A program made the translations under genes and the position numbers. Under the pieces are notes generated by a model. It was not told the origin of the DNA. It made no database searches and was given only the letters and a program-made list of their open reading frames with translations. A stretch of DNA of 61,875 nucleotides from a virus: the UHGV virus genome UHGV-0856201. One strand, given 5' to 3'. Shown here in pieces: positions 1-61,875 of this stretch; within the stretch, counting starts at the first letter, position 1, and each line of letters opens with the position of its first letter.

Positions 1-139
1 TATTCAACAGGAAAACCACCTAATTAGAATTGCCGACCACAAACGGTCACTAACTTCCCTATGTTCTCTAACTTCCTCTTTACATCATTATTATTCATTA
101 GATACATTAGTAATCTGCGTCACAAGGAGGAGTGTCTTA

Positions 140-190
140 TGTGCTATATATTTGAAGACAGTGACGAATGGCTGAGTTTATGCCGCCAGA
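140..190 (+). promoter_or_regulatory. Anellovirus UTR core (TATA-like box plus conserved UTR motif)
   Basis: tatata at 145-150; cgaatggctgagtttatgccgc at 165-186, recognised as the conserved anellovirus UTR element. Confidence 0.6.
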
Positions 191-333
191 CGAAGACGGG
201 ATCACTTCAGTGACTCCAGGCTGAACTTGGGCGGGTGCCGAAGGTGAGTGAAACCACCGAAGTCAAGGGGCAATTCGGGCTAGTTCAGTCTGGCGGAACG
301 GGCAAGAAACTTAATATATATTATTTTACAGAT

Positions 334-618
334 ATGTTCCACAACCCAAACTATGGACACCACCGCCTACAATTGAAAATAACTAACACCTGCATCCAAG
401 TCCACGGATTAACCTGTTCCTGCAACAATCCAGGATTCCACTTACTACAAATTCTAACCACCCAAATAGGAAAAGAACTAAAACCAGAAGAAAAAAATCA
501 AATTAAACAATGCCTTGGAAACCAAGATACTACCGCCGCCGGTGGAGACGACGACCATATTTTTGGAGACCTAGAAGAACTTTTCGAAAAAGATTTTACA
601 GACGCCGATACTGGGTAA
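334..618 (+). CDS. Anellovirus ORF2-like protein
   Basis: ATG at 334 in frame of ORF 235-618; H-x3-C-x-C-x5-H signature (HGLTCSCNNPGFH); overlaps ORF1 start as in anelloviruses. Confidence 0.55.
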   Translation: MFHNPNYGHHRLQLKITNTCIQVHGLTCSCNNPGFHLLQILTTQIGKELKPEEKNQIKQCLGNQDTTAAGGDDDHIFGDLEELFEKDFTDADTG

Positions 619-1619
619 GCAGACGACGCTTTAAAAGAAAATTAAAAAAACTTTTAGTTAAAGAATATCAACCGCATTCTATAAGAAAATGTACTGTTAA
701 AGGACTACTATGTTTATTTCAGACTGATGTACAAAGAATAGGATTTAATTTTGATATGTATGAAGAATCTTTTGTACCAGATAAACTACCAGGTGGAGGA
801 GGCTTTAGCATAAAAAACTTATCATTATACAGTTTATATATAGAACACATAAACGGCCACAACATTTTTACACACTCCAACATCTATTACCCTCTGGTTA
901 GATACTTAGGATGCCAACTAAAATTTTACCAAAGTGCAAATGTAGACTACATAGTAACATACAGCAATACATGGCCATTAGAAAGCAACTTACAAATGTA
1001 CAACACCATGCAACCAGCCATTCACTCACTACAAAAAAACAAAATAATGATACCAGCAAAATCCACACAAAAAAGAAAAAGACCTTATAAAAAAGCATTT
1101 ATACCACCACCAACACAAATGAAATCACAATGGTACTTTGCCGCAGACATAGCAAAAAAACCACTACTAATGCTAAGAACCTCTAGCTGTTCTTTTGATC
1201 ACTGGTACATAGGCACAAGAATGATCAGCACAAACATAACTATATACACATTAAACTCATTAATGATTCAAAACAGACACTGGAATATATCAAACTATCA
1301 ATACTTCTCAAGATACTTAGGAACACAAAAATACTACCTATACAGCACAACACAAACATTTAATGTAATTACAGAACTAGAATTAAAACATGTTATATGT
1401 CTAGGAGACACAAAAAGAAATGTACCAGGAATTTCCTACTGGGACTTATATAAACAAGACCCCACAACAACAGAATTAGAAAAATACAAATCCCAAAAGA
1501 ACTGGGGAAACTGCTTTCATACTAATTATTTACAAGAACATGACCCTGTATTTGCAAGTCAAACAGACTGGGCAACAATAATCACAAAAATAGCAAGCAA
1601 AACCAAAAGACCACAGTAG
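510..1619 (+). CDS. Anellovirus ORF1 (capsid) N-terminal portion, interrupted
   Basis: Arg-rich N-terminus MPWKPRYYRRRWRRRPYFWRPRR; A-rich composition unlike rest of window; stops at 1617-1619, 61 nt before the phage junction. Confidence 0.75.
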   Translation: MPWKPRYYRRRWRRRPYFWRPRRTFRKRFYRRRYWVSRRRFKRKLKKLLVKEYQPHSIRKCTVKGLLCLFQTDVQRIGFNFDMYEESFVPDKLPGGGGFSIKNLSLYSLYIEHINGHNIFTHSNIYYPLVRYLGCQLKFYQSANVDYIVTYSNTWPLESNLQMYNTMQPAIHSLQKNKIMIPAKSTQKRKRPYKKAFIPPPTQMKSQWYFAADIAKKPLLMLRTSSCSFDHWYIGTRMISTNITIYTLNSLMIQNRHWNISNYQYFSRYLGTQKYYLYSTTQTFNVITELELKHVICLGDTKRNVPGISYWDLYKQDPTTTELEKYKSQKNWGNCFHTNYLQEHDPVFASQTDWATIITKIASKTKRPQ

Positions 1620-1684
1620 CAGATTTACCATACACATTTACAGACATACAACTAGTGGAACAAGTAAGATACAACCCATTCCTG

Positions 1685-2029: not shown

Positions 2030-2049
2030 GATTATGTCCTCCTTTGTTT

Positions 2050-2100
2050 TGATGTTTGTAGGTTACACGTCCTTGTGTAATCCGTCAAGAATTATTTTAA
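2050..2100 (-). promoter_or_regulatory. conserved phage early promoter (copy 1)
   Basis: plus-strand gtcaagaattatttta at 2084-2099; -35 TTGACG on minus strand with AT-rich upstream element. Confidence 0.6.
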
Positions 2101-2340
2101 ATTATCGTAGACAGGCGGTAAGCCCATTGCAGCCTGTACAGACCGTTTTTCGTATTCCTCCCGAAGTTTCTGAAGTCGTTCAATACCGATGTCACAACCA
2201 CGTATTATATCAGCGCACAGGTCGTTGTAGGTCGCTTCAGATTGCTTGCTGTGTGGGTAATCAACACAGGATGGATCTGCAATAATGACTTTCGGCAGAT
2301 ACGCGACAGTATCGCCCATTGCGTTTTTAAATATCGTCAT
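2092..2340 (-). CDS. hypothetical protein
   Basis: 82-aa ORF in compact minus-strand operon; no recognised motif. Confidence 0.4.
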   Translation of the reverse strand: MTIFKNAMGDTVAYLPKVIIADPSCVDYPHSKQSEATYNDLCADIIRGCDIGIERLQKLREEYEKRSVQAAMGLPPVYDNLK

Positions 2341-16048: not shown

Positions 16049-17506
16049 ATGGCTGAATCAATTTTTAAATGTTCGCAAACACCTGCGGCTGATGTAAACG
16101 CAACACGACTCAGTGTAGCAAAAGTCTGTGAACCTGTTTCTGGTACACCCTGGACGGTTCAACAACCGAATGAAATCAGTTCTTACAGTGCTGATATTAC
16201 AAAGACTCAGCGTACACCGATCAGTACGGACCGATCTGCACGTAAAGGCACGGTAACTAACGTTGAAGTTGCACCGGGCTTTCAGACAGACCTGACACTT
16301 GATGCGTTCCGCTACTGGGGTGACGGATTCCTTTATAGTAAATGGGTCGGTGCTGGTGCAATTGATATCGACGTTACCAGTGTTGACGCTGACGCTTATA
16401 ACGTTACTACTCTTGATGCGGCATTACCTGAAGGTGCTCTTGTTTATGCGACAGGTTTTACACTGGCTGCAAACAACGGTTTGAAAACTGTAGGTACTGA
16501 TAGTACCACTACTGCTATCAACGTGTCAGGGCTTAGTGCCGAAGCGTCACCGCCTGCTGAAGCTCGTTTATATCTCGTGGGGTATGCTGCAGCGTCTGGT
16601 GACATCGCTGTTAACAGTAATGGTCAGTTGACGTCTACCACCCTGGATTTTTCCACACTGGGTTTAGTACCGGGACAGTATATTTATATTGATGGTCTAA
16701 CACAGTCTGTAACCAGTAAAATGGCCCGTGTGACTATGGTTGGCGATCATGTTCTGACTCTCGCTAACAGTGAATTCACCACTGAAGAAGGTACGGGTAA
16801 AACTGTACGTTTATTTGTTTCCAGTTTTGTTCGAAACGTTCCTGTTGACTCTGCAGAGTTCGTTAAAACTGAATACACAATGGAAGCACGTTACAACACG
16901 ACACCTGTCATTTATGAATATGCGCGTGCTGTAGCTGCAAATCAGATGACGATCAACGCGCCGTTGACTGAAAAAATGACAATGGATCTGACGTTTGTCG
17001 CACAAGACTTGTCAGCACCGTCAGAAACCGCGTTACCGGGTTCCGGGTATATTGAATTCGTGGCTAACGAAGCGTACAACACCGTAACGAACCTGAACCG
17101 TGTACGACTGACCGGTATTGATGATAGTGGCCTCAGTACGTTCCTGAAAGACGTTACTGTCACCGTGAATAACAACGTGTCAGGTGAAAACGTGCTGGGC
17201 GTGATGGGTGCTGCGTTTACCAACATCGGTAACCTGGAAATCACGATGGAAACTGAAACGGTGATGACGGACGGTACTGTATTGGCTGCGATCCGTAACA
17301 ACGCGACCGTTAACTTCGAACTTGCTGGGGTAAACGGTGATGGTGCAATCGTGGTTAACATTCCTGCGATGACACTGGGCGACGGTTCTAAGAACCTGGC
17401 AACTGGCGAAAAAGTGAAAGTTACTGTCAGTGGTAACGCTCACGAAGAAGAATCGATCGGCTTTATGATTGGTTTCAGCTTGTTCCCGTACTTGCCTACA
17501 GCATGA
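16049..17506 (+). CDS. major tail protein (large, possibly with Ig-like extension)
   Basis: 485 aa, Thr/Val-rich; directly upstream of G/GT chaperone and tape measure genes. Confidence 0.5.
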   Translation: MAESIFKCSQTPAADVNATRLSVAKVCEPVSGTPWTVQQPNEISSYSADITKTQRTPISTDRSARKGTVTNVEVAPGFQTDLTLDAFRYWGDGFLYSKWVGAGAIDIDVTSVDADAYNVTTLDAALPEGALVYATGFTLAANNGLKTVGTDSTTTAINVSGLSAEASPPAEARLYLVGYAAASGDIAVNSNGQLTSTTLDFSTLGLVPGQYIYIDGLTQSVTSKMARVTMVGDHVLTLANSEFTTEEGTGKTVRLFVSSFVRNVPVDSAEFVKTEYTMEARYNTTPVIYEYARAVAANQMTINAPLTEKMTMDLTFVAQDLSAPSETALPGSGYIEFVANEAYNTVTNLNRVRLTGIDDSGLSTFLKDVTVTVNNNVSGENVLGVMGAAFTNIGNLEITMETETVMTDGTVLAAIRNNATVNFELAGVNGDGAIVVNIPAMTLGDGSKNLATGEKVKVTVSGNAHEEESIGFMIGFSLFPYLPTA

Positions 17507-17739: not shown

Positions 17740-17792
17740 CGTTGAGTTAAAGATACCTTAACAGGTGTAATTCGTCAAGAATTATTTTAAAT
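17740..17792 (-). promoter_or_regulatory. conserved phage early promoter (copy 5)
   Basis: ttcgtcaagaattattttaaat; -35 TTGACG 17773-17778 (minus). Confidence 0.6.
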
Positions 17793-17855
17793 ATCTTGCG
17801 TAATTTGTACAGAACTATTACTATCTAATCGTCTACTACATAAAAGGTAAAAACC

Positions 17856-18278
17856 ATGTCAAAGTTTGACCATCTGAAAAAAGCACTTTCTCCATTAGTG
17901 CTGAAGTCTTCTGCTGAACTGATTTTAAATGAAAATTTCAGTATCACCGTGTTGAACCTGAACACCGCTAACCAGGTATATAACGTAACAGTTGCGGACT
18001 ATGTAAAACAGAACGGTGTGTTGTCTGAAAACTTCTTTGAAAAACTGTGGAATCAGGAATATACACCAGAAGGTGTTAAGTTCGTGGCTAACGTTCTTAT
18101 GCTGGACTGGAAACTGATTGGTGAAGATGACAAACCGGAACCATTCAGTGTTGAAGAAGCTATTGAACTGTTAAGTGATGAACGTTTTGGTCAGGTGATC
18201 TACAGCCGTGTTATTCAGTTCGCAATTAATTCCGCATTCTTCCAGGACGAATGGGAGAAACAGATTGAAAAAAACTGA
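17856..18278 (+). CDS. tail assembly chaperone (G-like)
   Basis: 140 aa between major tail and tape measure genes; ends at slippery heptamer A_AAA_AAC. Confidence 0.6.
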   Translation: MSKFDHLKKALSPLVLKSSAELILNENFSITVLNLNTANQVYNVTVADYVKQNGVLSENFFEKLWNQEYTPEGVKFVANVLMLDWKLIGEDDKPEPFSVEEAIELLSDERFGQVIYSRVIQFAINSAFFQDEWEKQIEKN

Positions 18279-18574
18279 TCGACTTCCTCTTGTGGAACGA
18301 TAAGACAGACGGGGACGACCTGGACTGGGTTACACAAGGGGCGGCTGCACGTGGTATATCTGTTCCGGTTGTTGTACAGAAACGTCCTGAATTGCGACCT
18401 GATGCTATCTTTTACTGGAATGCTTATTTGGATCTGATGGAAGCTGATTGGGTTGCTTGTGAGCGTTATGCACGGGTGTATAACGTTGATGTACAATTCT
18501 TGTGGAAATTATTGGTAGCATTGCGGTCTGCACGTGTTGTCGAGATGAAGAAAAATAAACAAAAGCCCGGTTAG
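17856..18574 (+). CDS. tail assembly chaperone frameshift product (G-T-like fusion via -1 frameshift)
   Basis: Zero-frame gaa aaa aac tga; -1 frame opens at 18275 and runs to 18574 (..LIDFLLWNDKTDGDD..). Confidence 0.5.
18269..18275 (+). other. -1 programmed frameshift slippery heptamer A_AAA_AAC
   Basis: Heptamer in X_XXY_YYZ register just before the G stop codon. Confidence 0.55.
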
Positions 18575-18588
18575 TTCCGGGCGTTTTC
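18564..18588. terminator. putative bidirectional terminator
   Basis: gcccggttagttccgggc then gttttc, between convergent genes. Confidence 0.45.
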
Positions 18589-19485
18589 ATTTATGTAGTC
18601 GAGGATTGCAGGAGAGTATTTAAACCACTCTGTAGCACCGTCAAAGCCTTTGAGACGCGCATTAAGTTCACGGAAGACCTTGTGTACCTCTTGTTCCAGT
18701 TTGTAAGCATCAGCGCCGTGTGGAAACAGGTACGACACGAGTTTAACCACTGGGTGTGTTGTTTCGCGTTGTAGTTGTCGTAGTCGCCGTTTTAAGTCGT
18801 TTGTGATACCGACTTTAAGCAGAGTAGGGCACTTTTTATCGTCAGCTAACACGTAGAGTGTACCGGGTTCTGACGGGTTAAAACCTGTTTGTGAACACTG
18901 AGGACAACCATGTTTTTTATGCAAATGCATGGCTGGACGTTGTTCAAACACTCCATGCTCTGGGCAGATGATTTTTATTCGAGTGAAATTGTTAATATAC
19001 GCCACCAACGAATAGTCGTAACGGTCCCCATGAACTTCGCGAGCACGAGTAATGAAATCTTCGGCGCCTAAGCGTTTTTGTTCAGACGACTGTTTACGAG
19101 CACATTGTGGGCAACCTTTCCCGTGAACATGATTGCCCGGTGTCTGTTCAAACACATCATGTATCGGACAGATAATCTTCACAGGTGTGCACCAATTCAC
19201 ATACTCCACCAGCGAATAGTCATACTTGTCACCATGAACTTCACGAGCACGAGTGATAAACTCTTCTGTGGTTAAACGTTTTTGTTCAACAGTACATTGG
19301 GTACAACCTGCTTTCATTGAAGTGTGATTGTTCGGAGTCTGTTCAAATACCCCGTGTTCGGGGCAGATAATTTTTACTTTGGTGTTAGCACCTTCATACT
19401 CCACTAGCGAGTAATCGTATTTGTGCCCATGAACTTCACGGGCACGCGTGATAAACTCTTCTGTGGTTAAACGTTTCCTACTCAT
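18571..19485 (-). CDS. T5orf172-domain protein with three Zn-ribbon repeats, paralog 3
   Basis: Three repeats of FITRAREVHGxKYDYSLV..KIICPEHGVFEQ; C-terminal GTLYVL..LKVGIT..GFDGATEWF. Confidence 0.65.
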   Translation of the reverse strand: MSRKRLTTEEFITRAREVHGHKYDYSLVEYEGANTKVKIICPEHGVFEQTPNNHTSMKAGCTQCTVEQKRLTTEEFITRAREVHGDKYDYSLVEYVNWCTPVKIICPIHDVFEQTPGNHVHGKGCPQCARKQSSEQKRLGAEDFITRAREVHGDRYDYSLVAYINNFTRIKIICPEHGVFEQRPAMHLHKKHGCPQCSQTGFNPSEPGTLYVLADDKKCPTLLKVGITNDLKRRLRQLQRETTHPVVKLVSYLFPHGADAYKLEQEVHKVFRELNARLKGFDGATEWFKYSPAILDYINENARN

Positions 19486-19486
19486 C

Positions 19487-19666
19487 TTATTTGTCGCTTT
19501 TTAACACAGACCAGATTAACGCACCTAACCAACCGACGAATGTCCAACCCGCAAAGATGTTAAGTAAAATAATTGCTGTTTGTTGTTTATGTTTAACGTT
19601 AATCGCGATGAGTGCTGGGATCAGATATACAGCAGCGATTAAGAAAAGAATGATGAAAGTAGCCAT
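19487..19666 (-). CDS. small membrane protein, superinfection-immunity-like
   Basis: 59 aa MATFIILFLIAAVYLIPALIAINVKHKQQTAIILLNIFAGWTFVGWLGALIWSV; resembles Imm_superinfect family. Confidence 0.45.
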   Translation of the reverse strand: MATFIILFLIAAVYLIPALIAINVKHKQQTAIILLNIFAGWTFVGWLGALIWSVLKSDK

Positions 19667-19689
19667 TTTGTAACCCTCCTTTGTTTTGA

Positions 19690-19738
19690 TGTTTGTAGGT
19701 TACACGTCCTTGTGTAATCCATCAAGAATTATTTTAAA
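19690..19738 (-). promoter_or_regulatory. conserved phage early promoter (copy 6)
   Basis: ccatcaagaattattttaaacg; -35 TTGATG; upstream segment near-identical to copy 1. Confidence 0.55.
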
Positions 19739-19800
19739 CGTTTGTCGCTTTTTAGACCCGTGTTAAACTGTGTACATGCTTCACGAAAAGGTTAACCAAC

Positions 19801-22703
19801 ATGGCACAATATCCTATTGATATTAAGATTGACACCGGTTCGGCTGACCGCAATCTTAATAATCTTAACAGTCAGTTAGATCAGACTGAAAAATCAACCA
19901 TAGCGGCAACACAGGCTGCTAATCAGTTATCTGTGGCTGAACAGCAGGTTGCAAAAGCAGCACAGCAACTGGCACAACAACAAGCTAATCAGGCTGCGCG
20001 TACTATAGCAACTGCTCGCGCTACTCGTGAAGCGGCACAGGAACAATCACGCCTGTTAGCAACACAGGGTGCTGCTGCTCGTGCGGCTGGTCAGACTGTT
20101 AATAATCAACAGAAATTTGCTGAATTAGCCAAAATTATCAAACAAGCAACTGCTGATGAAAAGAAAGCAATTGACGATCTGACTAACAGTCTTAAAAAAC
20201 TTGATAATCAGCAGAATAACACTAACCAATCAACACAAAAAACTAAGGGCGCTCTTGAAACACTTGTCACTGGTGCAAAAGCGTTTGTCGGTTTACAGAT
20301 TGCAGGATCGCTTTACGACTGGGGTAAAGCCTTTGTAGATACTGCAACGAAAGTCGAACTGCTACAAAGTCGTATCAATCTGTACACATCAACGTCTGTC
20401 GAATCACAACAGATATTTGCGCAATTAGTACAACAAGCTAACCGTGCTGGTACAGATATTGACGCTGTGGCAAACAGTTTTCAGCGTTTTGCCGCTGCTG
20501 GTAAAGATGCCGGGATTAGTAATCAGGTTATTTTACAGTTTACCGACAACCTGCAAAAAATGGCCCGTGTATCTGGTGCATCCAGTGCTGAAGCATCTGC
20601 GGCTATTTATCAATTGTCACAGGCATTTGCATCTGGTCTTTTGCAGGGGGATGAATTCCGATCTGTGTCAGAACAGTTACCAACTGTTCTTCAGGTGCTG
20701 GCTAAACAGATGGGTGTTACCACGGATGAACTTAAACAGTTAGGTTCTGATGGCGAAATTACCCGTGATAAACTGTTATTGTTAAACAACGCGACTGATG
20801 AAATCAGCGCACAGTTCGATAAACTTCCTCGTTCTGTAGATCAGTCTGCCACTGCGTTACGTAACAACCTGTCCGTGGCTATCGCTGAACTCGATCAGCA
20901 GATTGGCGCATCTAAATTCCTGGCTAAATTCCTGGACCTGTTAGCAGGTGGTGTATCGGGTACAACAGAGTTAATAAAAGCCGCTGCAGGTGCTGACAAA
21001 CTGGCACAAGCCACTAACAATCTGAATAGTGTTACCGCAAAACGTGAAGCCAATCTGAAAGAAATTGCAGATCTGGAAGCACAAATTCAGCGTGGGTATA
21101 CAACACAGTCAATTGGTGGGTATACAAAATTTGTTGGTGACACCAGTGCTGCACAGAAGAAATTAAACGAACTTAAAAAACTTGATGTTCAGTTAACAAA
21201 ACAACAAGCAGAAGCACAACGAGGGGTTGTTCAGGCTACTCCGTTGGGTAAGGGTGTTGCTGAAAATCTTGCAAATCAGGCAAGCACTTTACAGGCGAGT
21301 ATTACGGCTGCTCAGGCTGCCGGACGTCCTGATGCCGAATCTGCAAAACAGATTAAAAACCTGAAAGAACAGATCACCTACACCCAGGCGCTTGCTGACG
21401 GTAACTATGAACTGGCAGCAAGTCAGAAACTGGGTAATAAAGCAACTAAGGAACAGATTGCAGACTATGCTGCATTGTTGAAACAACAGGCAGAATATAA
21501 AGAAAACCAAAAAAACAGAAGGAATCAGCGAGTGCTGCTAAACGTGCACAGAAAGAACTGGAACGTAATCAGGCTGCTAACCAGAAATACCTGAAAACGC
21601 TTCAGGATAAAATCAATGCTGGTAATTATGATGTTCAGTTAGCCCGCGAACAGGTTCAGATTGCTTTAACACAGGGGTCGTCTGTTGAACAACTTACAGC
21701 AACGTATCAGAAAGAATATCAGGTACGTCAACAGTTAACGCTGGCTTCACAACAAGCAGAAGCACAGTCACGACTGAATAAAGACGCGACAGATGCTGAA
21801 CGTGCTGCTGTTGATGCACATGTGGCTGCATTGCAACGTCAACAGCAGATAGCACAGTTAAGCGCAGATGTAAAACAAGTTGACATTGATGTGAAAGCAC
21901 AGTTGAACCCGTATCAATCACAAATTGATCAGGTTAATCAACAGGAAGCAACACGTCTTAGTATTATCCAAGCTGCCCGTGAACAAGATTTAATCAACGA
22001 ACAACAATACCAGGATATGAAAACGCAGATTCAACAGGCTGGGGAACAAGCCCGTACGAATCTTGCAAACGCTAACTACAGCTTGTTGCTACAATCCAGT
22101 GCTGATTTTTTGGGTCAAATGGCTGCTGGTCTGGCACAATCTAAAGGTGAGCAATCAAACGCGTATAAAGCGATGTTTGCACTGTCTAAAGCCTTTAGTA
22201 TCGCACAGGCGAGTATTAACCTGTGGACAGCCGTTAGTCAGGCTATGGCGTTGCCGTTCCCGGCGAATATTCCGTTCATTGCACAGGCTTTATCATACGG
22301 GACAAGTGTGTTAGGTAACATTCAGTCTGTGGCTGCAACAGGTTTTGCAACGGGTGGTTATGTTAAAGGTCCGGGTACAGGTCAGAGTGACAGTATAAAC
22401 GCACGTTTGAGTAATGGTGAGTTTGTCAGTACCAAACAGGCTACCAGTCGTTATCGTAGCACTCTGGAAGCAATGAATCGTGGCACATATACACCAGGAT
22501 CTGAAGGTGGTTCATCACCTAATATTCAGGTTCATAACTACGGTGGTGAACGTGTTCAGGTGAAACAAGGATTAACACGAGATGACGTAGTGCTTATCAT
22601 AGGTGAAGAATTCCCACGACAATCAGCGGCACAATGGAATGACCCGTACAGTCAGACGAATAAAGCGTTCAGGTCTAACTATGATGCGAACAGGAAAATA
22701 TAA
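19801..22703 (+). CDS. tape measure protein, split by a -1 frame change at an A7 run
   Basis: ORFs 19801-21594 and 21501-22703 are both TMP-like; frames overlap 21501-21594. Confidence 0.7.
21510..21516 (+). other. A_AAA_AAC heptamer at the tape measure frame change
   Basis: Same heptamer and register as the chaperone site; a -1 slip here continues the ORF to 22703. Confidence 0.4.
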
Positions 22704-23206
22704 TGAGCAATACAGATGATTTACCACGACTTGAGTACGGCGCGAAAATGGTGTTACCTGAGCGTGATAATTACAGTTATAACCCGCCGTGGGGTGTAAC
22801 TAAATCTGATATTTCCGGGACGCTATCACGGTTAGGTCGTAGCGCCTTTGGTGGTCCTGCTCAGGTATCGTGTACAATTCAGTTATATAGTCCTGCGATG
22901 CTTCAGTGGTGGGACGATTTTTATAATCTGGAAATCGCTGAAGGTAGTAAGCGGTTTGTGATGCAACTGTTTGTGAACGGTTTGATTCAGGAACACGTTG
23001 TTCAGATTGTCAGTAACCCGTCATCCTCTGTTGTAGGATGGAAAGGATCTGTCGATCTACAGTTGCAAGCTGTTCCGGTAATCGACCGTTGCGCAATGGC
23101 ATCACGATTGTTAATCACTAAATGCCAGGGTGATTACGCTGCTTGTTACCTTAAAGAAATTATTGATACTGGCCTACTCTTAAATAACGCGTGGACACCA
23201 GAATGA
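22703..23206 (+). CDS. minor tail protein
   Basis: 167 aa immediately after tape measure gene. Confidence 0.4.
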   Translation: MSNTDDLPRLEYGAKMVLPERDNYSYNPPWGVTKSDISGTLSRLGRSAFGGPAQVSCTIQLYSPAMLQWWDDFYNLEIAEGSKRFVMQLFVNGLIQEHVVQIVSNPSSSVVGWKGSVDLQLQAVPVIDRCAMASRLLITKCQGDYAACYLKEIIDTGLLLNNAWTPE

Positions 23207-23709
23207 AAGACGAACTACGTGAATTATTAACGGTCGCAACAACTGGTAAAGGTGTTGTTGACGGTGTGAAACTGAATCATAGTTCATGGCCCAATCCGCT
23301 ATACATCACCAGTGTTTATCCGGGATTTATCGCTGTGCATGAAGACGGTAAGGAATACGAGTATGAGTACGTTCCTATGTCCGTCAAGAAGGCGAATAAA
23401 CAAAACGATTTATCACAGGATTATTCATTCACCATTCAGGATCTGAATGAAGTTGTCGGTGTATATCTGGACTTAATTCCACTTGACAGCAATGAAAAAC
23501 CATCTGTTGAGTTACGAACGTTTGTTTATCGTGAAGATGGTTCCATGTCTGATATTCAGGATGGGCCATATCTTCTGGAATCTGGTGACATTACTACCGA
23601 ACCACAGGGTTGTACGTTCACAGCATCACCACCTATTACGAACTTTGCCGGGACAGGTGAATTATATACGTTTGAACGTTTTCCCACTCTACTGGCGTAT
23701 GCAACATGA
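23191..23709 (+). CDS. minor tail protein
   Basis: 172 aa; coupled in tail-tip operon. Confidence 0.4.
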   Translation: MDTRMKDELRELLTVATTGKGVVDGVKLNHSSWPNPLYITSVYPGFIAVHEDGKEYEYEYVPMSVKKANKQNDLSQDYSFTIQDLNEVVGVYLDLIPLDSNEKPSVELRTFVYREDGSMSDIQDGPYLLESGDITTEPQGCTFTASPPITNFAGTGELYTFERFPTLLAYAT

Positions 23710-24065
23710 TCGGTGACCGCTACGATATTGACAAATGGAATTGTACACACGAGGTTAGTCAGTGGTATCAGGTCCACAACTACCCATACGTATTGAAAAC
23801 TGTTTCAGGTGATGAATGGGATATTGCGTTTGTCAGATGGATGCGAAAACGTTTTTCACCAATTACCACACCGGAACAAGGCGCACTTGTACTGATGAAG
23901 AACCGATATTCAGGCGGTTTTCATGTCGGCGTGTGGGATTGTGGAATGGTTCATCATTGTTATCAACCACCGGGTGATTCACCAGGACAGACAATCAGAT
24001 CACCTTTAAGTATAATCAAGACAGCACATAAAGAAATCACGTTCTGGAGAATGAAAAGTGTCTAA
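23706..24065 (+). CDS. tail assembly protein, NlpC/P60-like
   Basis: 119 aa; candidate Cys/His residues (WNCTH, GGFHVGV, VHH); position as lambda K. Confidence 0.4.
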   Translation: MIGDRYDIDKWNCTHEVSQWYQVHNYPYVLKTVSGDEWDIAFVRWMRKRFSPITTPEQGALVLMKNRYSGGFHVGVWDCGMVHHCYQPPGDSPGQTIRSPLSIIKTAHKEITFWRMKSV

Positions 24066-26586
24066 AGTCATCTATCACACTAACCCTGTTGAACACGCTG
24101 ATAACGTTGACTTTGGTGAATGGATGCTGAAACGCTGGCCCGTGGGTACAGTTCGTCCGCGTGGGTTACTGATTTATAAAAACGACGAAAACATTACCCA
24201 AAAGTGGGTTACTGACCCCAGCGTATTGACTGATCCTGACGCTGTTTATCATATTTATGAACTACCAAAAGGAGGAGTGGTTAGTGCAATAACGAAAGTT
24301 ATTAGCACAATTCTAAACCCCATTTTAAAATTGTTTATGCCGAACACCAGTGCGTCGGCTAATCTTAAGAACTCACGTTCAGCGTCGTCTAACAACGCGC
24401 TTCAGGGGCGTACTAATGCTTCACGACCGGGTGAACGTATTTCTGATATCCGTGGTCGTGTACTGGCATATCCTGACCTGTTAATGGACTACCGAATCTT
24501 CATTGACCGAACAGAATACGAAGTTCAGTTTCTGTGTCTGGGTGCTGGTGAATACGAAGTCGAAGACGTTCGTGATGGTATTACACCTGCTGTAAACATC
24601 AGCGGTGAAAAATTAGACTTTTATAAAAAAGGTAATGCACCAGGGTATGGTTCTCCATATATGAATATCGGTGGTGCAATTGATATTAACACTTTTCCGA
24701 TCATGGTTGCTAAGTCATCGAACGAAGCAGACGGATCTGAAGTCAAGCCACCAAACTATGCTGATATCAGCAAAGCGAGTTTTAAAATTTACAGCACAGG
24801 TGAAATTGATACTACGATTTCCAGCGACGATAATACTACAATCGACTGGTCAGAACGTGCACCAATCGGTAGTAAAATTCGTTTATCACAATTTTACAGT
24901 TTTACACCTAATACGTTACCGTTAAACACGTATGTACGCAATGACCTGTCCGGTGAATATGATGTTATTTATGCAGGTGAGAATACGTTAATCATTGATA
25001 CTAATGGTCATGATGGTTGGGATGCTCTATCTGAAAGTGGTCAGGCTGCGTATACACAGGCTTATTTGCGAAACGATGGTTACTGGGAACTTGAAACCAC
25101 TGAAGGAAGTGGAAGTATTTTATACAAGTTTTCACCGTCTCTTGACAGTACCACGCCGTATATTGTCGGGCCTTATCTGATTGATAGTGCGGATAAGTTG
25201 ATGATTAACCTTTATGCACAAAATGGCGTGTATAAAACTGATGGCGACATTTATCCGTTTACCTGTGATTTCCAGGTAATCTTGTCAGACCCGAACGGTG
25301 TAAAAGCGAATGTGACACACTCTATGTCTGTCCGCGGTCGTTATACAGAAGCTGTAGGTAATTCATTAATTGTGGACAACCCTTTTGACGGTCCTGTCAA
25401 CGTGTCTGTAAGACGACTGTCAAATACAGACAAAGACTTCGAAGGGTCTGTTGTTGACAACATCAAGTGGCGCGATTTGTACGCTATCACGAACGTTTCC
25501 CCGCGTTCCTATGGTGATGTGACATTGATCCATACAGTGACGAAAGCAACAAATGCGGCACTGAAACAAAAAGAACGTAAATTAAACATGATTGCAACCC
25601 GTGTGTATAACGGTGTTGCAAGTAGTAATTTTGCAGACGTTGTATTGTCAATGCACACAGATCCTTTATTTGGTCGTCGCACATTAGACACCATTGATCG
25701 TGATGCTTTATATGCTGTTCAGGCACAAATTCTTGAATATTTTGGTGACCAACGAGCAATTGAAGTTGGCTATACATTTGATAACAACAGTACGACGTAC
25801 GAAGAAGGATTGGACACTATCTGTAACACGGTGAACATTAAACCGTATCAGATCGGTAGTGTATTGTATTTCTGGCCTGAATTACCGCAAGACCAGTCCG
25901 CAATGCAGTTTGGTCATGCGTTTAAAATTCCTGACAGTGACAAACGCACACGTTCTTTCGCACCACCTAAAGAATACACTGGTGTTCAGGTTAAATACTT
26001 CGACCACGATGAAAAATCATATTTGTATGTAACCAAAGGTGAAGAAACAAACCTTAATAAGATAGACCTTGTTGCGTGTCAGTCGCGATATCTTGCAAAC
26101 ATTCGCGCTAATCGTGAGATGAATAAGTTACGTTATCAACGTATCACCCATGAATGTACAGCGCTTAGTATCGGGTTACAGGCTACCCCGGGTATGCGCG
26201 TGGACATGATTGATAACACCCGTATGAAACAACACGAAGGTGTCGTAGTTGACGTTGACGGTTTAACGCTTATTCTCAGCGATCCTGTTACGTTCACCAC
26301 GGGTAATACATACAGCATAACGTTAACACACCGACTGGGAACACTTGAAAATATTCCTATAACTGCCGGGGATAATGAATTTTCAGTGGTAATGGCTTAT
26401 CAACCGTCTGAAGAAATTTATACAGGATGGTTGCGTGACCGTACAGCATATGTGATCCGTGCTGATGATGAAAGAAGTAAATTAGCGATGCTTGTTCAGA
26501 GTATGGAACCGTCAGGAAGGAATAATAACTATCAGGTAGGTTTAACGTGCATCAATTACGATGCACGTTATTATCAGGATGATTAA
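24058..26586 (+). CDS. tail tip / central fiber protein (J-like)
   Basis: 842 aa; last large gene of tail operon. Confidence 0.45.
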   Translation: MSKVIYHTNPVEHADNVDFGEWMLKRWPVGTVRPRGLLIYKNDENITQKWVTDPSVLTDPDAVYHIYELPKGGVVSAITKVISTILNPILKLFMPNTSASANLKNSRSASSNNALQGRTNASRPGERISDIRGRVLAYPDLLMDYRIFIDRTEYEVQFLCLGAGEYEVEDVRDGITPAVNISGEKLDFYKKGNAPGYGSPYMNIGGAIDINTFPIMVAKSSNEADGSEVKPPNYADISKASFKIYSTGEIDTTISSDDNTTIDWSERAPIGSKIRLSQFYSFTPNTLPLNTYVRNDLSGEYDVIYAGENTLIIDTNGHDGWDALSESGQAAYTQAYLRNDGYWELETTEGSGSILYKFSPSLDSTTPYIVGPYLIDSADKLMINLYAQNGVYKTDGDIYPFTCDFQVILSDPNGVKANVTHSMSVRGRYTEAVGNSLIVDNPFDGPVNVSVRRLSNTDKDFEGSVVDNIKWRDLYAITNVSPRSYGDVTLIHTVTKATNAALKQKERKLNMIATRVYNGVASSNFADVVLSMHTDPLFGRRTLDTIDRDALYAVQAQILEYFGDQRAIEVGYTFDNNSTTYEEGLDTICNTVNIKPYQIGSVLYFWPELPQDQSAMQFGHAFKIPDSDKRTRSFAPPKEYTGVQVKYFDHDEKSYLYVTKGEETNLNKIDLVACQSRYLANIRANREMNKLRYQRITHECTALSIGLQATPGMRVDMIDNTRMKQHEGVVVDVDGLTLILSDPVTFTTGNTYSITLTHRLGTLENIPITAGDNEFSVVMAYQPSEEIYTGWLRDRTAYVIRADDERSKLAMLVQSMEPSGRNNNYQVGLTCINYDARYYQDD

Positions 26587-33969: not shown

Positions 33970-34881
33970 TCAGTAACCGTTACCGTTGAGAAAATTCGGG
34001 GCCGGGGTGGTCATTACCATATAACCGTTAGCGATCAGTTGTTCATCGTTCCAACCTTGCGTAATAAACTGTTCGTAAGTTGCACCACCTGCTTTTTCAG
34101 TCATTACCTTCACAGGTGCTGCCGCTGCTACAGGTGCTGCCGCTGGTGTAGGCGCTGCTACAGGTGCTGCCGCTGGTGTAGGCGCTGCTACAGGTGCTGC
34201 CGCTGGTGTAGGCGCTGCTACAGGTGCTGCCGCTGGTGTAGGCGCTGCTACAGGTGCTGCCGCTGGTGTAGGCGCTGGTGTTACGCCGATCGGACGTGCA
34301 CCTTCAGGCATTGCAGGAGCCGCACCGAACACAGAGGCAGGGGCCGGACCGGAAATGATTTCTTCACCTGCATAAAGCAATTGCGCCATTTCCATGTTGA
34401 TATATACACCAGCCTGATTACCTGTACGACCGTTTGCAACAGATGATCCGCTGATACGGTAGTAATAACCTTTTTTCGCCAGATTTTTATCAATAACTGG
34501 CTGGTACGCTGCGTTATAAACCGGACACGCGTCAATAGCCACGTTGCGTGAGAAACCAATTACCCAGTGACCAGCATAACCAGTTTTACTCGCATGTTTC
34601 GGATCGTCACCGTTAATAATTTTCCATGCGAAAGTAGGTTGTTGTGGTTCGCCGTTCACATAGTGTGAGTTAGCCGCTCGCATGATGGCCTGGAACACCG
34701 CACCAAGTTCACCTTGTTCTTCCCACCAGTTCGCAGCTGTTTTAGGAAATGCCAGACCAACCCACCAGTTATGTTTTTCAGGTGCTAACGGTTTATTTTC
34801 GTGGTCATGAGTGTTGATATCGAAAAAAGAACCGCCAACCAGACGACCAACCGGAGTTACAAAAGATTCTTTCTGTGCCAT
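33970..34881 (-). CDS. putative ssDNA-binding / replication accessory protein with Pro/Ala repeat linker
   Basis: 303 aa; between nuclease and polymerase; AAPVAAPTPA x5; C-terminal YEQFITQGWNDEQLIANGY. Confidence 0.4.
   Translation of the reverse strand: MAQKESFVTPVGRLVGGSFFDINTHDHENKPLAPEKHNWWVGLAFPKTAANWWEEQGELGAVFQAIMRAANSHYVNGEPQQPTFAWKIINGDDPKHASKTGYAGHWVIGFSRNVAIDACPVYNAAYQPVIDKNLAKKGYYYRISGSSVANGRTGNQAGVYINMEMAQLLYAGEEIISGPAPASVFGAAPAMPEGARPIGVTPAPTPAAAPVAAPTPAAAPVAAPTPAAAPVAAPTPAAAPVAAPTPAAAPVAAAAPVKVMTEKAGGATYEQFITQGWNDEQLIANGYMVMTTPAPNFLNGNGY
34115..34280 (-). repeat. 30-bp tandem repeat (5 units) inside CDS
   Basis: ggtgctgccgctggtgtaggcgctgctaca repeated in frame. Confidence 0.9.
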
Positions 34882-36042: not shown

Positions 36043-36803
36043 CAGAATGCCCCACCCATTTGTTTAACAGATTCAGCCTGACCAACAATGTTTTCAGCAT
36101 CAGCCGGGGCTGCGTTAATGCGTTCAATCAGTTCGATGATAGATTTCAGTTTTACTGGGTCGTCAATCTGCATCACGTTCTGAGTTTCATACAGTCCCAT
36201 GATTCGCTGACTTAATGGCGCAGCACGGTCACCCGTAATTTGTCCAAACATCTGCATCAGTGCTGACTGAAGAACCTGTGTGTTATAAACTTTAGCCGGA
36301 TCCGTGGTTACAGGTTGCTCGACTGGTGCAGCCGGTGCTGCTGGTACAACTGGAGCTACCGGAGCGGCAGGAACCGCTGGAGCAGGATCAACAGGTGCTA
36401 CATAACCCGGTGCAAGTTCTGCAGGTCCGGTATAACGCCCTGCTTCAACTGCTTCAGCAATAAGTTCACGTTTAACACCGTCAACAAACGCTTCATCCAG
36501 TTTTTTCTTCTGACGCCACAGACCATCACCTTTGTTCAGGGATTTACTGTCAATGTGGATACGCGGATCGTGACGCAAACCCCATTTGTCGAACTCTTCA
36601 GTGCTGGTTTCGTTATCGTCAACATCTTCAGTTGGTGCAGATACAACAGGCAGTGATTCAGCAACGACAGTCACAGTTTCTTTAGTGATACCATCACCCT
36701 GAGCAGTCATGAGTGGTGCAGCACCAGTCGCAATCGCTGCTGCCAGATTGTTGATCGCAGTTTCCAGACCCGGAGCAGTTACAAGTAATTTAACTTCGAA
36801 CAT
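36042..36803 (-). CDS. hypothetical protein (first gene of replication operon)
   Basis: 253 aa; Pro/Ala-rich linker; start coupled to promoter copies 7/8. Confidence 0.4.
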   Translation of the reverse strand: MFEVKLLVTAPGLETAINNLAAAIATGAAPLMTAQGDGITKETVTVVAESLPVVSAPTEDVDDNETSTEEFDKWGLRHDPRIHIDSKSLNKGDGLWRQKKKLDEAFVDGVKRELIAEAVEAGRYTGPAELAPGYVAPVDPAPAVPAAPVAPVVPAAPAAPVEQPVTTDPAKVYNTQVLQSALMQMFGQITGDRAAPLSQRIMGLYETQNVMQIDDPVKLKSIIELIERINAAPADAENIVGQAESVKQMGGAF

Positions 36804-48072: not shown

Positions 48073-48708
48073 ATGAAAATTTCAGACCGGGCTAAAAGGG
48101 CTGCTCTGGAGTTAACAACAGATCAACTCCGTTTCGCTAACCTGTGGTTAGATCGTGTCAATAACGGCTTCAGCAACGCTCAGTGCGTCTTACACGCTTA
48201 TCCGGGGCATAAAGACCCTGACGCAGCTAAAGTCACCGCACACCGCCTCCTGTCGAATACAAAGGTGTTGAACTATCTGGACGCGATGGGGAGTCATGCG
48301 CTTGAGTCTGTCGGGGAATCGTTAACGAGTCGTGTCGAGTGGTGGAAACGAGCGGCAAGCACGGCTGAAGAATTACTGGAACCGTATTGTCAGCGCGTTA
48401 TCGTCCCTGGCGAAGACGACACAGAAGCGAAACACCTGTGGGTGAACAGTACCGACGATATCCCCAGCCATCTGCAACAGTACGTAGTTTGCTACAAACG
48501 TTACATGCTGGGCGGATATATTCTGGTGACGCGTGAATTGTTCGATCCGAAAACTCGTGCAAAAGCGTCTGAACAACTGGATAAGATCACCGGGAACAGT
48601 ATCGACCGTGTGGAATTGTCTGGCGTGGTTGGTAACGTGGTTCAGAGTGTTCCTGAAGGTGCAACTATCGACGACATCGCGCAACTGTACCAGAAAGCAC
48701 TTAAATAA
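48073..48708 (+). CDS. terminase small subunit
   Basis: Start MKISDRAK; N-terminal DNA-binding-like region (LTTDQLRFANLW...NAQCVLHAY) resembles Terminase_2 family. Confidence 0.55.
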   Translation: MKISDRAKRAALELTTDQLRFANLWLDRVNNGFSNAQCVLHAYPGHKDPDAAKVTAHRLLSNTKVLNYLDAMGSHALESVGESLTSRVEWWKRAASTAEELLEPYCQRVIVPGEDDTEAKHLWVNSTDDIPSHLQQYVVCYKRYMLGGYILVTRELFDPKTRAKASEQLDKITGNSIDRVELSGVVGNVVQSVPEGATIDDIAQLYQKALK

Positions 48709-54524: not shown

Positions 54525-54556
54525 GGCGGGATTATTCCCGCCCGTTTTCTTTTTTT
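54525..54556 (+). terminator. rho-independent terminator after terL
   Basis: ggcgggattattcccgcc followed by gttttcttttttt. Confidence 0.7.
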
Positions 54557-60060: not shown

Positions 60061-60187
60061 TCCTGTCAGTTAACATACTTCGCGATCAGTTTATCACAGT
60101 CCTCGCGACAGGTAGCATACTTAAACAGGTCACTTGCTGCTTCTGCCCGGTAGTCAGTATCAATAGTGTAATGTTCATTGACATAGT
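60061..60187. repeat. 127-bp exact repeat of phage start (1681-1807); circular-contig overlap
   Basis: 60061-60187 identical to 1681-1807; length 127 equals a common assembler k-mer size. Confidence 0.9.
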
Positions 60188-60287
60188 NNNNNNNNNNNNN
60201 NNNNNNNNNNNNNNNNNNNNNNNNNNNNNNNNNNNNNNNNNNNNNNNNNNNNNNNNNNNNNNNNNNNNNNNNNNNNNNNNNNNNNNN
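60188..60287. other. 100-N scaffold gap
   Basis: Run of exactly 100 N. Confidence 1.
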
Positions 60288-60414
60288 CGTGAATTGTTCG
60301 ATCCGAAAACTCGTGCAAAAGCGTCTGAACAACTGGATAAGATCACCGGGAACAGTATCGACCGTGTGGAATTGTCTGGCGTGGTTGGTAACGTGGTTCA
60401 GAGTGTTCCTGAAG
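60288..60414. repeat. 127-bp exact repeat of phage 48532-48658 (inside terS)
   Basis: Identical to terS internal segment; diverges into anellovirus sequence at 60415. Confidence 0.9.
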
Positions 60415-61454
60415 ACAAACAACAACTAGAGCAACACGCAGGAAACCCTTTTACATCAGAATATTTAACTAATCCAGAAGGACTATTCACAAGCACAAAA
60501 GACCCTACAAACTTTTTTCTACAATTTACAGAAAAAACACAAGCACTTGAAACACATAAAACAACATTAAACTACAATCACCTACAACACCCATTAATAT
60601 TAGAAACAAGATACAATCCAAATAAAGACCAAGGCCTACATAACAAAGCATATGTACTACCAGTAAACAAACCAGGAGTTAACTGGACACCACCAAATGA
60701 TGAAGACTTAATATTAGAAGGATTTCCAATATGGTTACTAATATTTGGATTTATAGACTACATTAAAAAAACTCAAAAGCTAATTAATGTAGACGAAAAA
60801 CATGTACTATGCATACAAACATCTAACACAAACCCAAAATGGGACCAACCTATTATACCACTCTCATATACATTTGAAGAAGGACACAGCCCTTACAGCA
60901 AACAATTAAACCCATATGACACAGACAAATGGTATCCACAAATACAATACCAAGAAGAAGCCATAAATGATATTATAAAATGTGGACCAGGAACAGCTAA
61001 AATAGGAGACAGACTTAGTGAAGAGATTAAATGTGAATATGAATTTTATTGGAAATGGGGAGGACATCCACCTAAAATGCTAACTATAGACAATCCTGCA
61101 CAACAGGGAACATATCCCATACCCCGTAACAGCATCACATCAAATTCGTTACAGAATCCAGCAACACCACCAGAGTACTTCTTATACAGCTTCGACGAAA
61201 GACAGGGACTGCTTACAAAAACAGCTGCAAAAAGAATTAGAAAAGACTGGGAATCTAAAGACTATGTATCTGACTTTACAGAATCAACAAAAGAAGTCCC
61301 AATGCAAACACTCCAAACATCATCCGACGAAACATCGGACTCGGAAAAAGAAGAGGAGACACTACTCCAGCAGCTCCACCGACAGCAACAGCACCAGAAG
61401 CAGCTCAAGCGCCGAATTCTCAGATTAATGCAGAAAAATCCAAATTTAGAATAA
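60415..61454 (+). CDS. Anellovirus ORF1 C-terminal portion (partial)
   Basis: A-rich, Thr/Asn/Lys-rich ORF ending in Ser/Glu-rich and basic tail; composition matches 510-1619. Confidence 0.65.
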
Positions 61455-61658
61455 TACAATGTACTCAATATGTTAAACTGTTTGATGATAAAACTGTAAA
61501 AAATAGACGCATGAATAAGTATGAAATGGAACATGAAAAAGATGTAGCTAAAGCCTTTTGTAGACCACCAAAAAAATTCTTACTTGATGTACCATACTAC
61601 CCATGGGTAGACATCCCAGAACCACTTGTAAACTTTCACCTGAGATATAACTTTGATG

Positions 61659-61664
61659 AATAAA
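61659..61664 (+). promoter_or_regulatory. polyadenylation signal (AATAAA)
   Basis: aataaa ~200 nt downstream of ORF1 stop, as in anelloviruses. Confidence 0.5.
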
Positions 61665-61749
61665 CAAGGCCAACAATATTCACTTAGTGGTGTCAGTTTA
61701 TATAAGTTAAAACCTAAATAAACATCCGTTACCAATTGAAATTTGTTGG

Positions 61750-61840
61750 CGCCAAAAGGGGGCTCCGCCCCCTTTAACCCCCAAGGGGGCTCCGCCCCCT
61801 TAAACCCCCAAAGGGGGCTCCGCCCCCTTAAACCCCCGGA
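61750..61840. repeat. Anellovirus GC-rich region with three ~27-bp repeats
   Basis: gggggctccgccccc at 61758, 61785 and 61813, each followed by ttaaaccccc. Confidence 0.8.
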
Positions 61841-61875
61841 AACCACAAAATTTGCATTGCCGACCACAAACGAAC

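What the first reader, a model, noticed from the sequence alone, without database searches (positions are those of the whole stretch)
21501..21594. Tape measure gene split by a -1 frame change at an A7 run with the same A_AAA_AAC heptamer
The TMP reading frame stops at 21594 while the -1 frame (open from 21501) continues TMP-like coiled-coil sequence to 22703. The two frames overlap exactly at ccAAAAAAAc (21509-21515), where A_AAA_AAC is in zero-frame register, identical to the chaperone site. This is either a homopolymer indel error (or genuine pseudogenisation) or a second programmed -1 frameshift yielding a 597-aa short form and a ~967-aa long form.
Basis: seen in the sequence. Interest (0 to 1): 0.6.

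Follow-up and report, generated by a model that had tools for sequence, protein, structure and literature searches.

The report
One-base gap splitting a phage tape-measure gene
The tail tape-measure gene of this Sasha/9NA-like phage is split only because this one assembly is one base short next to a run of seven A's; every relative has an unbroken gene, so this is most likely a sequencing or amplification artefact, or at most a recent one-off deletion, and not a second programmed frameshift.

Summary
The TMP frame (19801..) stops at 21594. The -1 frame, open from 21501, carries the rest of the TMP to 22703. A_AAA_AAC sits in 0-frame register at 21510-21516, the same heptamer as the chaperone slip site at 18269-18275.

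The programmed-frameshift reading is not supported. All ~20 related phage loci examined at DNA level, and every complete TMP read from the 138-member protein cluster, have one continuous TMP ORF. Aligned to them, the window lacks exactly one base directly 3' of the A7 run (relatives A7-CC-AG, window A7-C-AG). The heptamer is lost in 7 of 17 relatives through a synonymous AAA to AAG change or other substitutions, whereas the chaperone heptamer is invariant. No downstream structure was found.

The split product occurs in one sequencing run only (ERR975293). A second assembly of the same phage (CYGL01001368) reads A8-C, which restores a 967-aa ORF at the same length as relatives. That contig carries pyrosequencing-type overcalls, so it is not decisive.

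Best call: a homopolymer-length artefact at a true A8 (about 0.55). Rival: a genuine recent 1-nt deletion, leaky through slippage or simply defective (about 0.33). An evolved second PRF: about 0.05. Read pile-ups would settle it.

The parts
19801..21516 (+). Tape measure gene, 5' part in the 0 frame (codons 1-572, up to and including AAC of the heptamer)
   Evidence: PF20155 TMP_3 E 6e-52. 95-97% nt identity to intact 971-aa TMP genes of Sasha, PDP46 and L018.
21509..21515 (+). A7 homopolymer. With the C at 21516 it forms A_AAA_AAC (21510-21516) in 0-frame register.
   Evidence: Direct reading. Relatives have A7 (10 of 17), AAAAGAA (6) or AAAAGGA (9NA) at this place. CYGL01001368 has A8.
21516..21517 (+). 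Site of the single missing base relative to all relatives (AAC-CAG in relatives, AAC-AG here)
   Evidence: Alignments. It is the only frame-breaking indel inside a conserved gene in the whole-genome comparison with Bas82.
21517..21594 (+). Out-of-frame 0-frame tail ending at TGA 21592-21594 (25 codons with no homolog)
   Evidence: The 597-aa product is a singleton cluster found on one contig only.
21516..22703 (+). Tape measure gene, 3' part in the -1 frame (395 codons plus stop; frame open from 21501)
   Evidence: From the GCTAAACGT anchor at 21537 to the stop, 15-25 synonymous versus 1-2 non-synonymous codon differences to the nearest relatives and no further lesions. Its 293-aa ORF fragment clusters with 971-aa TMPs.
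21531..21542 (+). Junction of a separate in-frame 12-nt (4-codon, EASA) deletion relative to Sasha-type TMPs (between 21536 and 21537, ambiguous by the GCT repeat)
   Evidence: Independent intact genes L012, L013 and L015 are also 12 nt shorter here, with different junctions, so it is a real length polymorphism.
17856..18574 (+). Tail assembly chaperone pair (context): ORF 17856..18278 plus a -1 extension to 18574, with slip site A_AAA_AAC at 18269-18275 followed by TGA
   Evidence: PF23812 Phage_TAC_18 hit on the extension, below the curated cut-off. Relatives annotate a -1 frameshift product here. The heptamer is invariant in 8 of 8 relatives.

Best explanation
The phage most probably carries one ordinary, continuous tape-measure gene of 967 codons. 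The split is probably a one-base length error at the longest homopolymer of the gene. The true allele would be CAA AAA AAA CAG: a C-to-A substitution relative to the CAA AAA AAC CAG of relatives, which creates an A8 run and an Asn-to-Lys change in a variable linker. The A8 was then recorded as A7 in the reads that dominate run ERR975293, through a homopolymer miscall or polymerase slippage during amplification. The slippery-looking heptamer is ancestral and incidental, since it sits in intact TMP genes of many relatives. Shown: the one-base deficit and its exact position, its uniqueness, the intact architecture in relatives, the non-conservation of the heptamer, and the A8 reading in a second assembly. 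Inferred: that A8 rather than A7 is the true state of the viable phage.
For: (1) All relatives examined have one ORF. These are Sasha, Sergei, Solent, PDP46, AVIO78A, 9NA, SP069, Bas82, PJ16 and Klebsiella phages, 10 further metagenomic loci, and the listed complete TMPs of the 138-member 90% cluster (971 or 1065 aa).
(2) The window is exactly 1 nt short at 21516/21517.
(3) CYGL01001368 (L008) has 1 mismatch and 12 single-base gaps against window 17756-23737. It reads CCAAAAAAAACAG, the same length as relatives and in frame.
(4) The 597-aa product exists on one contig of one run only. Neither conceptual full-length version is found elsewhere.
(5) As A8 this would be the longest homopolymer in the window, which has no run of 8 or more. 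That is the place where a single residual homopolymer error is most expected.
(6) The -1-frame part shows strong purifying-selection signatures and no secondary lesions.
(7) There is no PRF stimulator: 60 nt downstream z = 0.13, 100 nt z = -1.36.
(8) The scaffold is demonstrably imperfect. It is a chimera of the phage with anellovirus ORF1 fragments, with a 100-N gap and k-mer overlaps.
Against: The window assembly is otherwise clean. No other conserved gene is broken, and all six other A7/T7 runs shared with Bas82 have the same length. An independent k-mer assembly of the run (Logan) also gives A7, so A7 is the majority state in those reads. L008 is a poor witness. All 12 of its differences from the window are insertions. 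Five of these follow the 454 flow order T-A-C-G as ghost bases, and seven are homopolymer overcalls. An A7 to A8 overcall would fit that bias. No relative has Lys at this position; all have Asn or Asp. I could not establish the sequencing platform of ERR975293.
Confidence: 0.55

Rival explanations
1. The one-base deletion (CC to C just 3' of the A7 run) is real in the sequenced phage population. The 0 frame then gives a useless 597-aa fragment. Two outcomes are possible. In the first, a small fraction of ribosomes slip -1 on A_AAA_AAC, re-reading the C and giving ...ENQKNQKES..., which matches the ENQKNQK motif of relatives across the break. RNA polymerase adding an A on the A7 run would have a similar effect. 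This would supply enough full-length TMP (a few copies per virion) for leaky growth, as in 'compensatory' frameshifting. In the second, the genomes are defective and were carried along by co-infection or over-represented by amplification from few templates. The A8 reading in L008 would then be an overcall or a frame-restoring pseudo-revertant.
For: Two assemblies of the run agree on A7. The window shows no other homopolymer damage. L008 has a 12:0 insertion bias. A -1 slip at this exact heptamer restores the ENQKNQK motif of relatives. The same heptamer is the conserved chaperone slip site in this phage group, annotated as such in Sasha, 9NA and AVIO78A. There is precedent for indels compensated by low-level frameshifting, in the G7 run of herpesvirus thymidine kinase (PMC5009743).
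Against: The split is a singleton; no other sample or relative has it. A majority-level frameshift in an essential tail gene should be outcompeted quickly by A7 to A8 revertants (inference). A_AAA_AAC is much less shift-prone than A_AAA_AAG in E. coli (PMC5009743). No stimulator was found. Losing a C from a CC pair is a less likely slippage event than a change in the A-run, whereas the A8-C allele needs only one substitution (inference).
Confidence: 0.33
2. An evolved second programmed -1 frameshift: the phage deliberately makes a 597-aa short TMP form and a 967-aa long form in a fixed ratio from one slippery site, in parallel with the chaperone G/GT-type site.
For: The heptamer is in register and identical to the chaperone site. 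The overlap window is short (21501-21591), with the slip site at its 5' end.
Against: None of about 20 relatives examined at DNA level, and none of the complete cluster members read, has the two-ORF layout. In relatives that keep the heptamer, a -1 slip runs into a stop after about 9 codons (read from the Sasha sequence). The heptamer is lost by a synonymous AAA to AAG change in 6 relatives and altered in 9NA, while the chaperone heptamer is invariant. No downstream structure or upstream SD-like element is present. The 0-frame tail is 25 codons of unconserved sequence.
Confidence: 0.05
3. The true sequence is A7-CC as in relatives, and both assemblies mis-read it (the window lost a C; L008 lost a C and gained an A).
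For: All relatives have Asn or Asp followed by CAG.
Against: It needs an undercall of a 2-mer in the majority of reads in two assemblies, plus a compensating overcall in L008. The three sequences derived from this phage (window, L009, L008) all agree on a single C.
Confidence: 0.04

Closest known systems
Homopolymer-associated single-base indels in flow-based (454/Ion) or amplified metagenome assemblies
   Same: The frame break sits at the longest mononucleotide run of the gene. It is unique to one run. A second assembly of the same phage differs by exactly one base in that run. That companion contig shows ghost insertions in T-A-C-G flow order and homopolymer overcalls.
   Different: The window assembly shows no other such error in 58 kb of phage sequence. 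The platform of the run could not be verified here.
Tail assembly chaperone -1 frameshift of long-tailed phages (lambda G/GT type)
   Same: It uses the same A_AAA_AAC heptamer, in the same tail operon and read by the same ribosomes. The real chaperone site of this phage is at 18269-18275.
   Different: The chaperone site is conserved in every relative, lies at the end of the upstream ORF, and is annotated as a frameshift in three relatives. The TMP site is conserved neither as a heptamer nor as a two-ORF layout.
Compensatory frameshifting on 'savior'/problem indels (e.g. herpesvirus thymidine kinase G-run mutants; reviewed in PMC5009743)
   Same: If the deletion is real, the picture matches: an indel beside a homopolymer in an important gene, a useless non-shifted product, and low-level slippage restoring a little full-length protein.
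   Different: No selective advantage of the indel is apparent here. Neither the indel nor the slippage is demonstrated.
E. coli dnaX -1 PRF (A_AAA_AAG with upstream SD-like element and downstream hairpin)
   Same: A lysine-codon-rich heptamer and a -1 direction.
   Different: The last base is C rather than G, which is much less shifty in E. coli (PMC5009743). There is no SD-like element within about 20 nt upstream and no significant downstream hairpin.

Membership tests
Programmed -1 ribosomal frameshift site | Slippery X_XXY_YYZ heptamer in 0-frame register inside the ORF overlap | tested here: met
   A_AAA_AAC at 21510-21516; codons CAA AAA AAC.
Programmed -1 ribosomal frameshift site | Stimulatory element: a stable hairpin or pseudoknot 5-9 nt downstream, or an SD-like sequence upstream | tested here: not met
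   MFE of 21517-21576 is -10.2 kcal/mol, z = 0.13. The 100-nt fold has z = -1.36, and 19 of 200 shuffles fold at least as well. The upstream sequence GCAGAATATAAAGAAAACC contains no GGAGG-like element.
Programmed -1 ribosomal frameshift site | Two-ORF overlap architecture conserved in related genomes | tested here: not met
   There is a single continuous TMP ORF in all relatives examined at DNA level. The listed complete members of the 138-member cluster are 971 or 1065 aa.
Programmed -1 ribosomal frameshift site | Slippery heptamer under purifying selection | tested here: not met
   The TMP heptamer is present in 10 of 17 relatives; 6 have AAAAGAA and 9NA has AAAAGGA. The chaperone heptamer is invariant in 8 of 8.
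Programmed -1 ribosomal frameshift site | Trans-frame protein product detected | not testable with these tools
   This needs mass spectrometry or a reporter assay.
Phage tail tape measure protein (Pfam TMP_3, Sashavirus/Nonanavirus type) | TMP domain, position between the chaperone pair and the distal tail genes, and full-length collinearity with homologs | tested here: met
   PF20155 E 6e-52. The gene order matches Sasha, Bas82 and 9NA. Both halves align end to end with 971-aa TMPs apart from the 1-nt and 12-nt gaps.
Homopolymer-length assembly artefact | Break located at or next to a long mononucleotide run | tested here: met
   The gap is placed at 21516/21517, abutting A7 21509-21515. As A8 it would be the longest run in the window.
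Homopolymer-length assembly artefact | An independent sequence of the same genome has a different run length that restores the frame | tested here: inconclusive
   L008 has A8 and is in frame locally. However, L008 carries 11 other insertion errors, and Logan contig L009 from ERR975293 agrees with the window.
Homopolymer-length assembly artefact | Other homopolymer errors in the same assembly | tested here: not met
   No other gene is broken. The other non-3n indels against Bas82 are intergenic or in divergent stretches, and those in well-aligned sequence are mostly shared with AVIO78A. The only window-unique homopolymer difference found is T7 versus T5 at 54550-54556.
Homopolymer-length assembly artefact | Run-length heterogeneity in raw reads | not testable with these tools
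Compensatory frameshifting on a genuine indel | Indel present in the DNA of viable virus, with full-length protein made by slippage | not testable with these tools
   Only the geometry could be checked. A -1 slip restores ...ENQKNQKES..., matching the ENQKNQK motif of relatives.

The most novel reading that the evidence does not exclude
The A7-C allele is real. This gut phage then propagates with a broken tape-measure gene, and its full-length product is supplied only by low-level -1 ribosomal slippage on A_AAA_AAC (the heptamer it already uses for its chaperone) or by RNA-polymerase slippage on the A7 run. That would be a natural case of compensatory frameshifting in an essential virion gene, with A8 pseudo-revertants co-circulating.
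Probability: 0.2. Interest if true: 0.5.

Novelty: not a real feature. Interest (0 to 1): 0.15.

Why it matters
If it is an artefact, the practical lesson concerns annotation. The TMP of this metagenome-derived Sashavirus should be annotated as one 967-codon gene with a note on the A-run. It should not be added to lists of recoding sites. A slippery heptamer coinciding with a frame break is what both a homopolymer error and a real PRF would produce, so comparative data are needed before calling PRF. If the deletion were real, it would be a rare natural example of an essential phage structural gene kept alive by background slippage. That would be of moderate interest for recoding biology and for how tolerant tail assembly is to low TMP supply.

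Tried and rejected
(1) I looked for the same split elsewhere. Exact-protein look-ups of the 597-aa and 293-aa products found only Logan contig ERR975293_9. Exact look-ups of both conceptual 967-aa products (the A8 version and the -1 PRF version) found nothing. DNA pattern scans of IMG/VR and of GTDB genomes found nothing.

(2) I tried to establish the sequencing platform and study of ERR975293 and CYGL01. Only the set title 'Assembly HumMal, Ma_F259_Contig' was recovered. The Malawian-twin virome paper is not held, and the accession I recalled is in no held paper. The platform therefore remains inferred from L008's error pattern.

(3) I tested for general homopolymer truncation in the window. 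This was rejected: the distribution resembles Bas82, and shared 7-runs have equal length.

(4) I tested for a downstream stimulatory structure and found nothing significant.

(5) I considered a split-gene reading, with the C-terminal part expressed separately from GTG 21822. This was rejected. It would drop about 100 codons (21516-21821) that are part of every relative's TMP. No start codon lies between 21501 and 21821 in that frame.

(6) I considered old pseudogenisation. This was rejected: there are no secondary lesions, and synonymous changes far outnumber non-synonymous ones downstream.

Full report
What is there.
The window holds a Sashavirus/Nonanavirus-type siphophage. TMP-region identity is 96.8% to Salmonella phage Sasha, 96.4% to Escherichia phage PDP46 and 84% to 9NA. 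Across the genome it is collinear with Escherichia phage Bas82. The tail operon runs from a tail tube gene (16049-17506) to a chaperone pair (17856-18278, with a -1 extension to 18574). A minus-strand cassette (18571-19666) follows, and then the tape measure gene. The TMP frame starting at 19801 ends at TGA 21592-21594 after 597 codons. The -1 frame is closed by TAA at 21498-21500 and open from 21501 to 22703. The A7 run is 21509-21515. With codons CAA AAA AAC, the heptamer A_AAA_AAC (21510-21516) is in register. The chaperone slip site is the same heptamer (18269-18275, followed by TGA).

Where the frame break is.
I aligned the window with Sasha, PDP46, 9NA, AVIO78A, Bas82, PJ16 and BDX09P1, and with eleven further metagenomic loci. 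There are two length differences. The first is a 12-nt in-frame deletion at 21536/21537. Independent intact genes (L012, L013, L015) are also 12 nt shorter at this spot, so it is a genuine polymorphism. The second is a single missing base immediately 3' of the A-run. Relatives read CAAAA[A/G]AA[C/T]CAG, and the window reads CAAAAAAAC-AG. The A-run is therefore not shorter than in relatives; one C is missing. A -1 slip on the heptamer would re-read that C and give ...ENQKNQKES..., which restores the ENQKNQK motif of relatives.

Comparative evidence against a programmed site.
Every relative has one continuous TMP ORF of 851-855, 967-971 or 1065 codons, depending on the N-terminal module. The downstream 293-aa ORF fragment belongs to a 138-member 90%-identity cluster. 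Of its 15 listed members, 11 are 971 aa and one is 1065 aa. The other three are the 293-aa query itself, an 827-aa partial sequence and the 971-aa representative. The 597-aa product is a singleton. The heptamer is not maintained: 6 of 17 relatives have AAAAGAA (synonymous Lys AAG) and 9NA has AAAAGGA. The chaperone heptamer, in contrast, is invariant in all eight relatives checked, including 9NA. In relatives that do carry the heptamer, a -1 slip would terminate after about nine codons (read from the Sasha sequence). Downstream RNA shows no structure beyond shuffled controls (z = 0.13 for 60 nt and -1.36 for 100 nt), and no SD-like element lies upstream. A_AAA_AAC is reported to be much less shift-prone than A_AAA_AAG in E. 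coli (PMC5009743). AAAAAAC is also common in the window (25 copies against 28 +/- 5 expected). An evolved second PRF is therefore very unlikely.

Error or real deletion?
Two other sequences of the same phage exist.
- Logan contig ERR975293_9 (L009) is 100% identical to window 19691-26571 and has A7. A7 is therefore the majority state in that run's reads.
- Metagenome contig CYGL01001368 (L008) belongs to a set titled 'Assembly HumMal, Ma_F259_Contig...'. It matches window 17756-23737 with one mismatch and 12 single-base gaps. At the site it reads A8-C. That has the same length as relatives and is in frame, and it corresponds to a simple C-to-A substitution (Asn to Lys).

L008 is nevertheless a weak witness. 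All 12 gaps are insertions in L008. Five are isolated bases that follow the pyrosequencing flow order T-A-C-G after the preceding base (T[A]G three times, C[G]A, G[T]A). Seven are homopolymer overcalls (the flow order is established knowledge of the 454 platform). L008 kept the chaperone A7 and all seven 6-mers at the correct length.

The window itself is otherwise clean. In a whole-genome comparison with Bas82, the TMP gap is the only frame-breaking indel inside a conserved gene. All six other shared A7/T7 runs have equal length. The intergenic homopolymer differences in well-aligned sequence are mostly shared with AVIO78A. On the other hand the scaffold is a chimera (see below), so the assembly is not beyond suspicion. 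As A8, this run would be the single longest homopolymer in the genome. The downstream half shows 15-25 synonymous versus 1-2 non-synonymous codon differences to its nearest relatives and no secondary lesion. Any lesion is therefore very recent, compensated, or not real.

Weighing.
The sequence data alone lean slightly towards A7 being what was in the tube, because two assemblies read A7 and the only A8 reading comes from an overcall-prone contig. The biological prior leans strongly the other way. A C-to-A substitution in a variable linker is an everyday event in genomes that differ at about 4% of sites. A majority-level frameshift in an essential tail gene of a phage abundant enough to assemble completely is rare, and A7 to A8 revertants should displace it. 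Amplification from few templates could also fix a slipped A7 molecule. I put about 0.55 on an artefact with the true gene intact. I put about 0.33 on a genuine recent deletion, either leaky through ribosomal or transcriptional slippage or simply defective genomes. I put about 0.05 on an evolved PRF, and the remainder on both assemblies mis-reading A7-CC. The sequencing platform could not be verified. From memory only, and unverified, the Malawian-twin virome study used MDA-amplified VLP DNA and 454 pyrosequencing, which would favour the artefact reading.

Comparison with known systems.
In form, the site resembles a G/GT-type phage slip site and would behave like 'compensatory' frameshifting on an indel (PMC5009743). 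As a member of the class of programmed frameshift sites it fails three tested criteria: conserved architecture, conserved heptamer and a stimulator. The gene is an ordinary member of the TMP_3 tape-measure family.

Verdict.
Interest is low, and read-level data would settle the remaining question quickly.

Noticed in passing
window 1-1679, 60188-60287, 60288-60414, 60415-61875: The window is a chimeric scaffold. Its two ends encode the N-terminal and C-terminal parts of an anellovirus ORF1 (PF02956 TT_ORF1, E 5e-79 and 7e-39), at 36% GC against 43% for the phage. A 100-N gap follows the phage part. Positions 60288-60414 are an exact 127-nt copy of 48532-48658, inside the small-terminase gene. 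The phage contig 1680-60187 carries an exact 127-nt terminal overlap (1680-1806 = 60061-60187), consistent with a circular path in a k=127 assembly graph. One phage/anellovirus junction lies in the small-terminase gene, where headful phages often have pac; this may reflect a physical DNA end (speculation).
   Followed up: partly
window 18571-19666 (minus strand): A mobile-looking cassette is inserted between the chaperone pair and the TMP gene. It holds a 304-aa T5orf172/DUF723 endonuclease-like gene with an internal ~340-nt duplication at 76% identity (18941-19281 / 19145-19476), plus a 59-aa Imm_superinfect gene. The cassette is present in Bas82, PJ16, L012, L014, L016, L021 and L022, and absent from Sasha, PDP46, AVIO78A and 9NA. 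In the loci that show both features it accompanies the 851-855-aa TMP form, but in the window it is combined with the Sasha-type TMP N-terminus, so the region is mosaic.
   Followed up: partly
window 2038-2101 and 19675-19738: A 64-nt repeat (about 95-100% identical between its copies and to Bas82) lies just upstream of the TMP gene and at a second locus near 2.0 kb. No sigma-70-like promoter or terminator pattern was found at 19600-19810.
   Followed up: partly
window 21536/21537; L012, L013, L015: A 12-nt in-frame length polymorphism (loss of four codons, EASA) lies 20 nt downstream of the A-run. Several independent lineages are 12 nt shorter here, with different junction sequences, which suggests repeat-mediated slippage in the GCT/GCG-rich stretch.
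   Followed up: yes
TMP N-terminal third (window 19801-~21340) versus relatives: Closely related phages (C-terminal halves over 93% identical) carry TMPs of 851-855, 967-971 or 1065 aa through exchange of the N-terminal module. This implies different tail lengths within one genus.
   Followed up: no
protein P0042 (JGI/Logan, 656 aa): This is another truncated Sasha-type TMP in public assemblies, broken at a different place (...YQVRQRYPHVQQD). It shows that assembly-level TMP truncations occur in this group.
   Followed up: no
window 54550-54556: A T7 run in the terminator-like region after the large-terminase gene is T5 in both Bas82 and AVIO78A. It is the only other window-unique homopolymer length difference found, and it is intergenic.
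   Followed up: partly
window 34123-34278 and 36324: Window 34123-34278 lacks 12 nt and 18 nt in-frame relative to a Gly/Ala-rich repeat in Bas82's ssDNA-binding/annealing protein gene (the repeat region also gives several overlapping matches), and 9 nt in-frame are missing at 36324.
   Followed up: no
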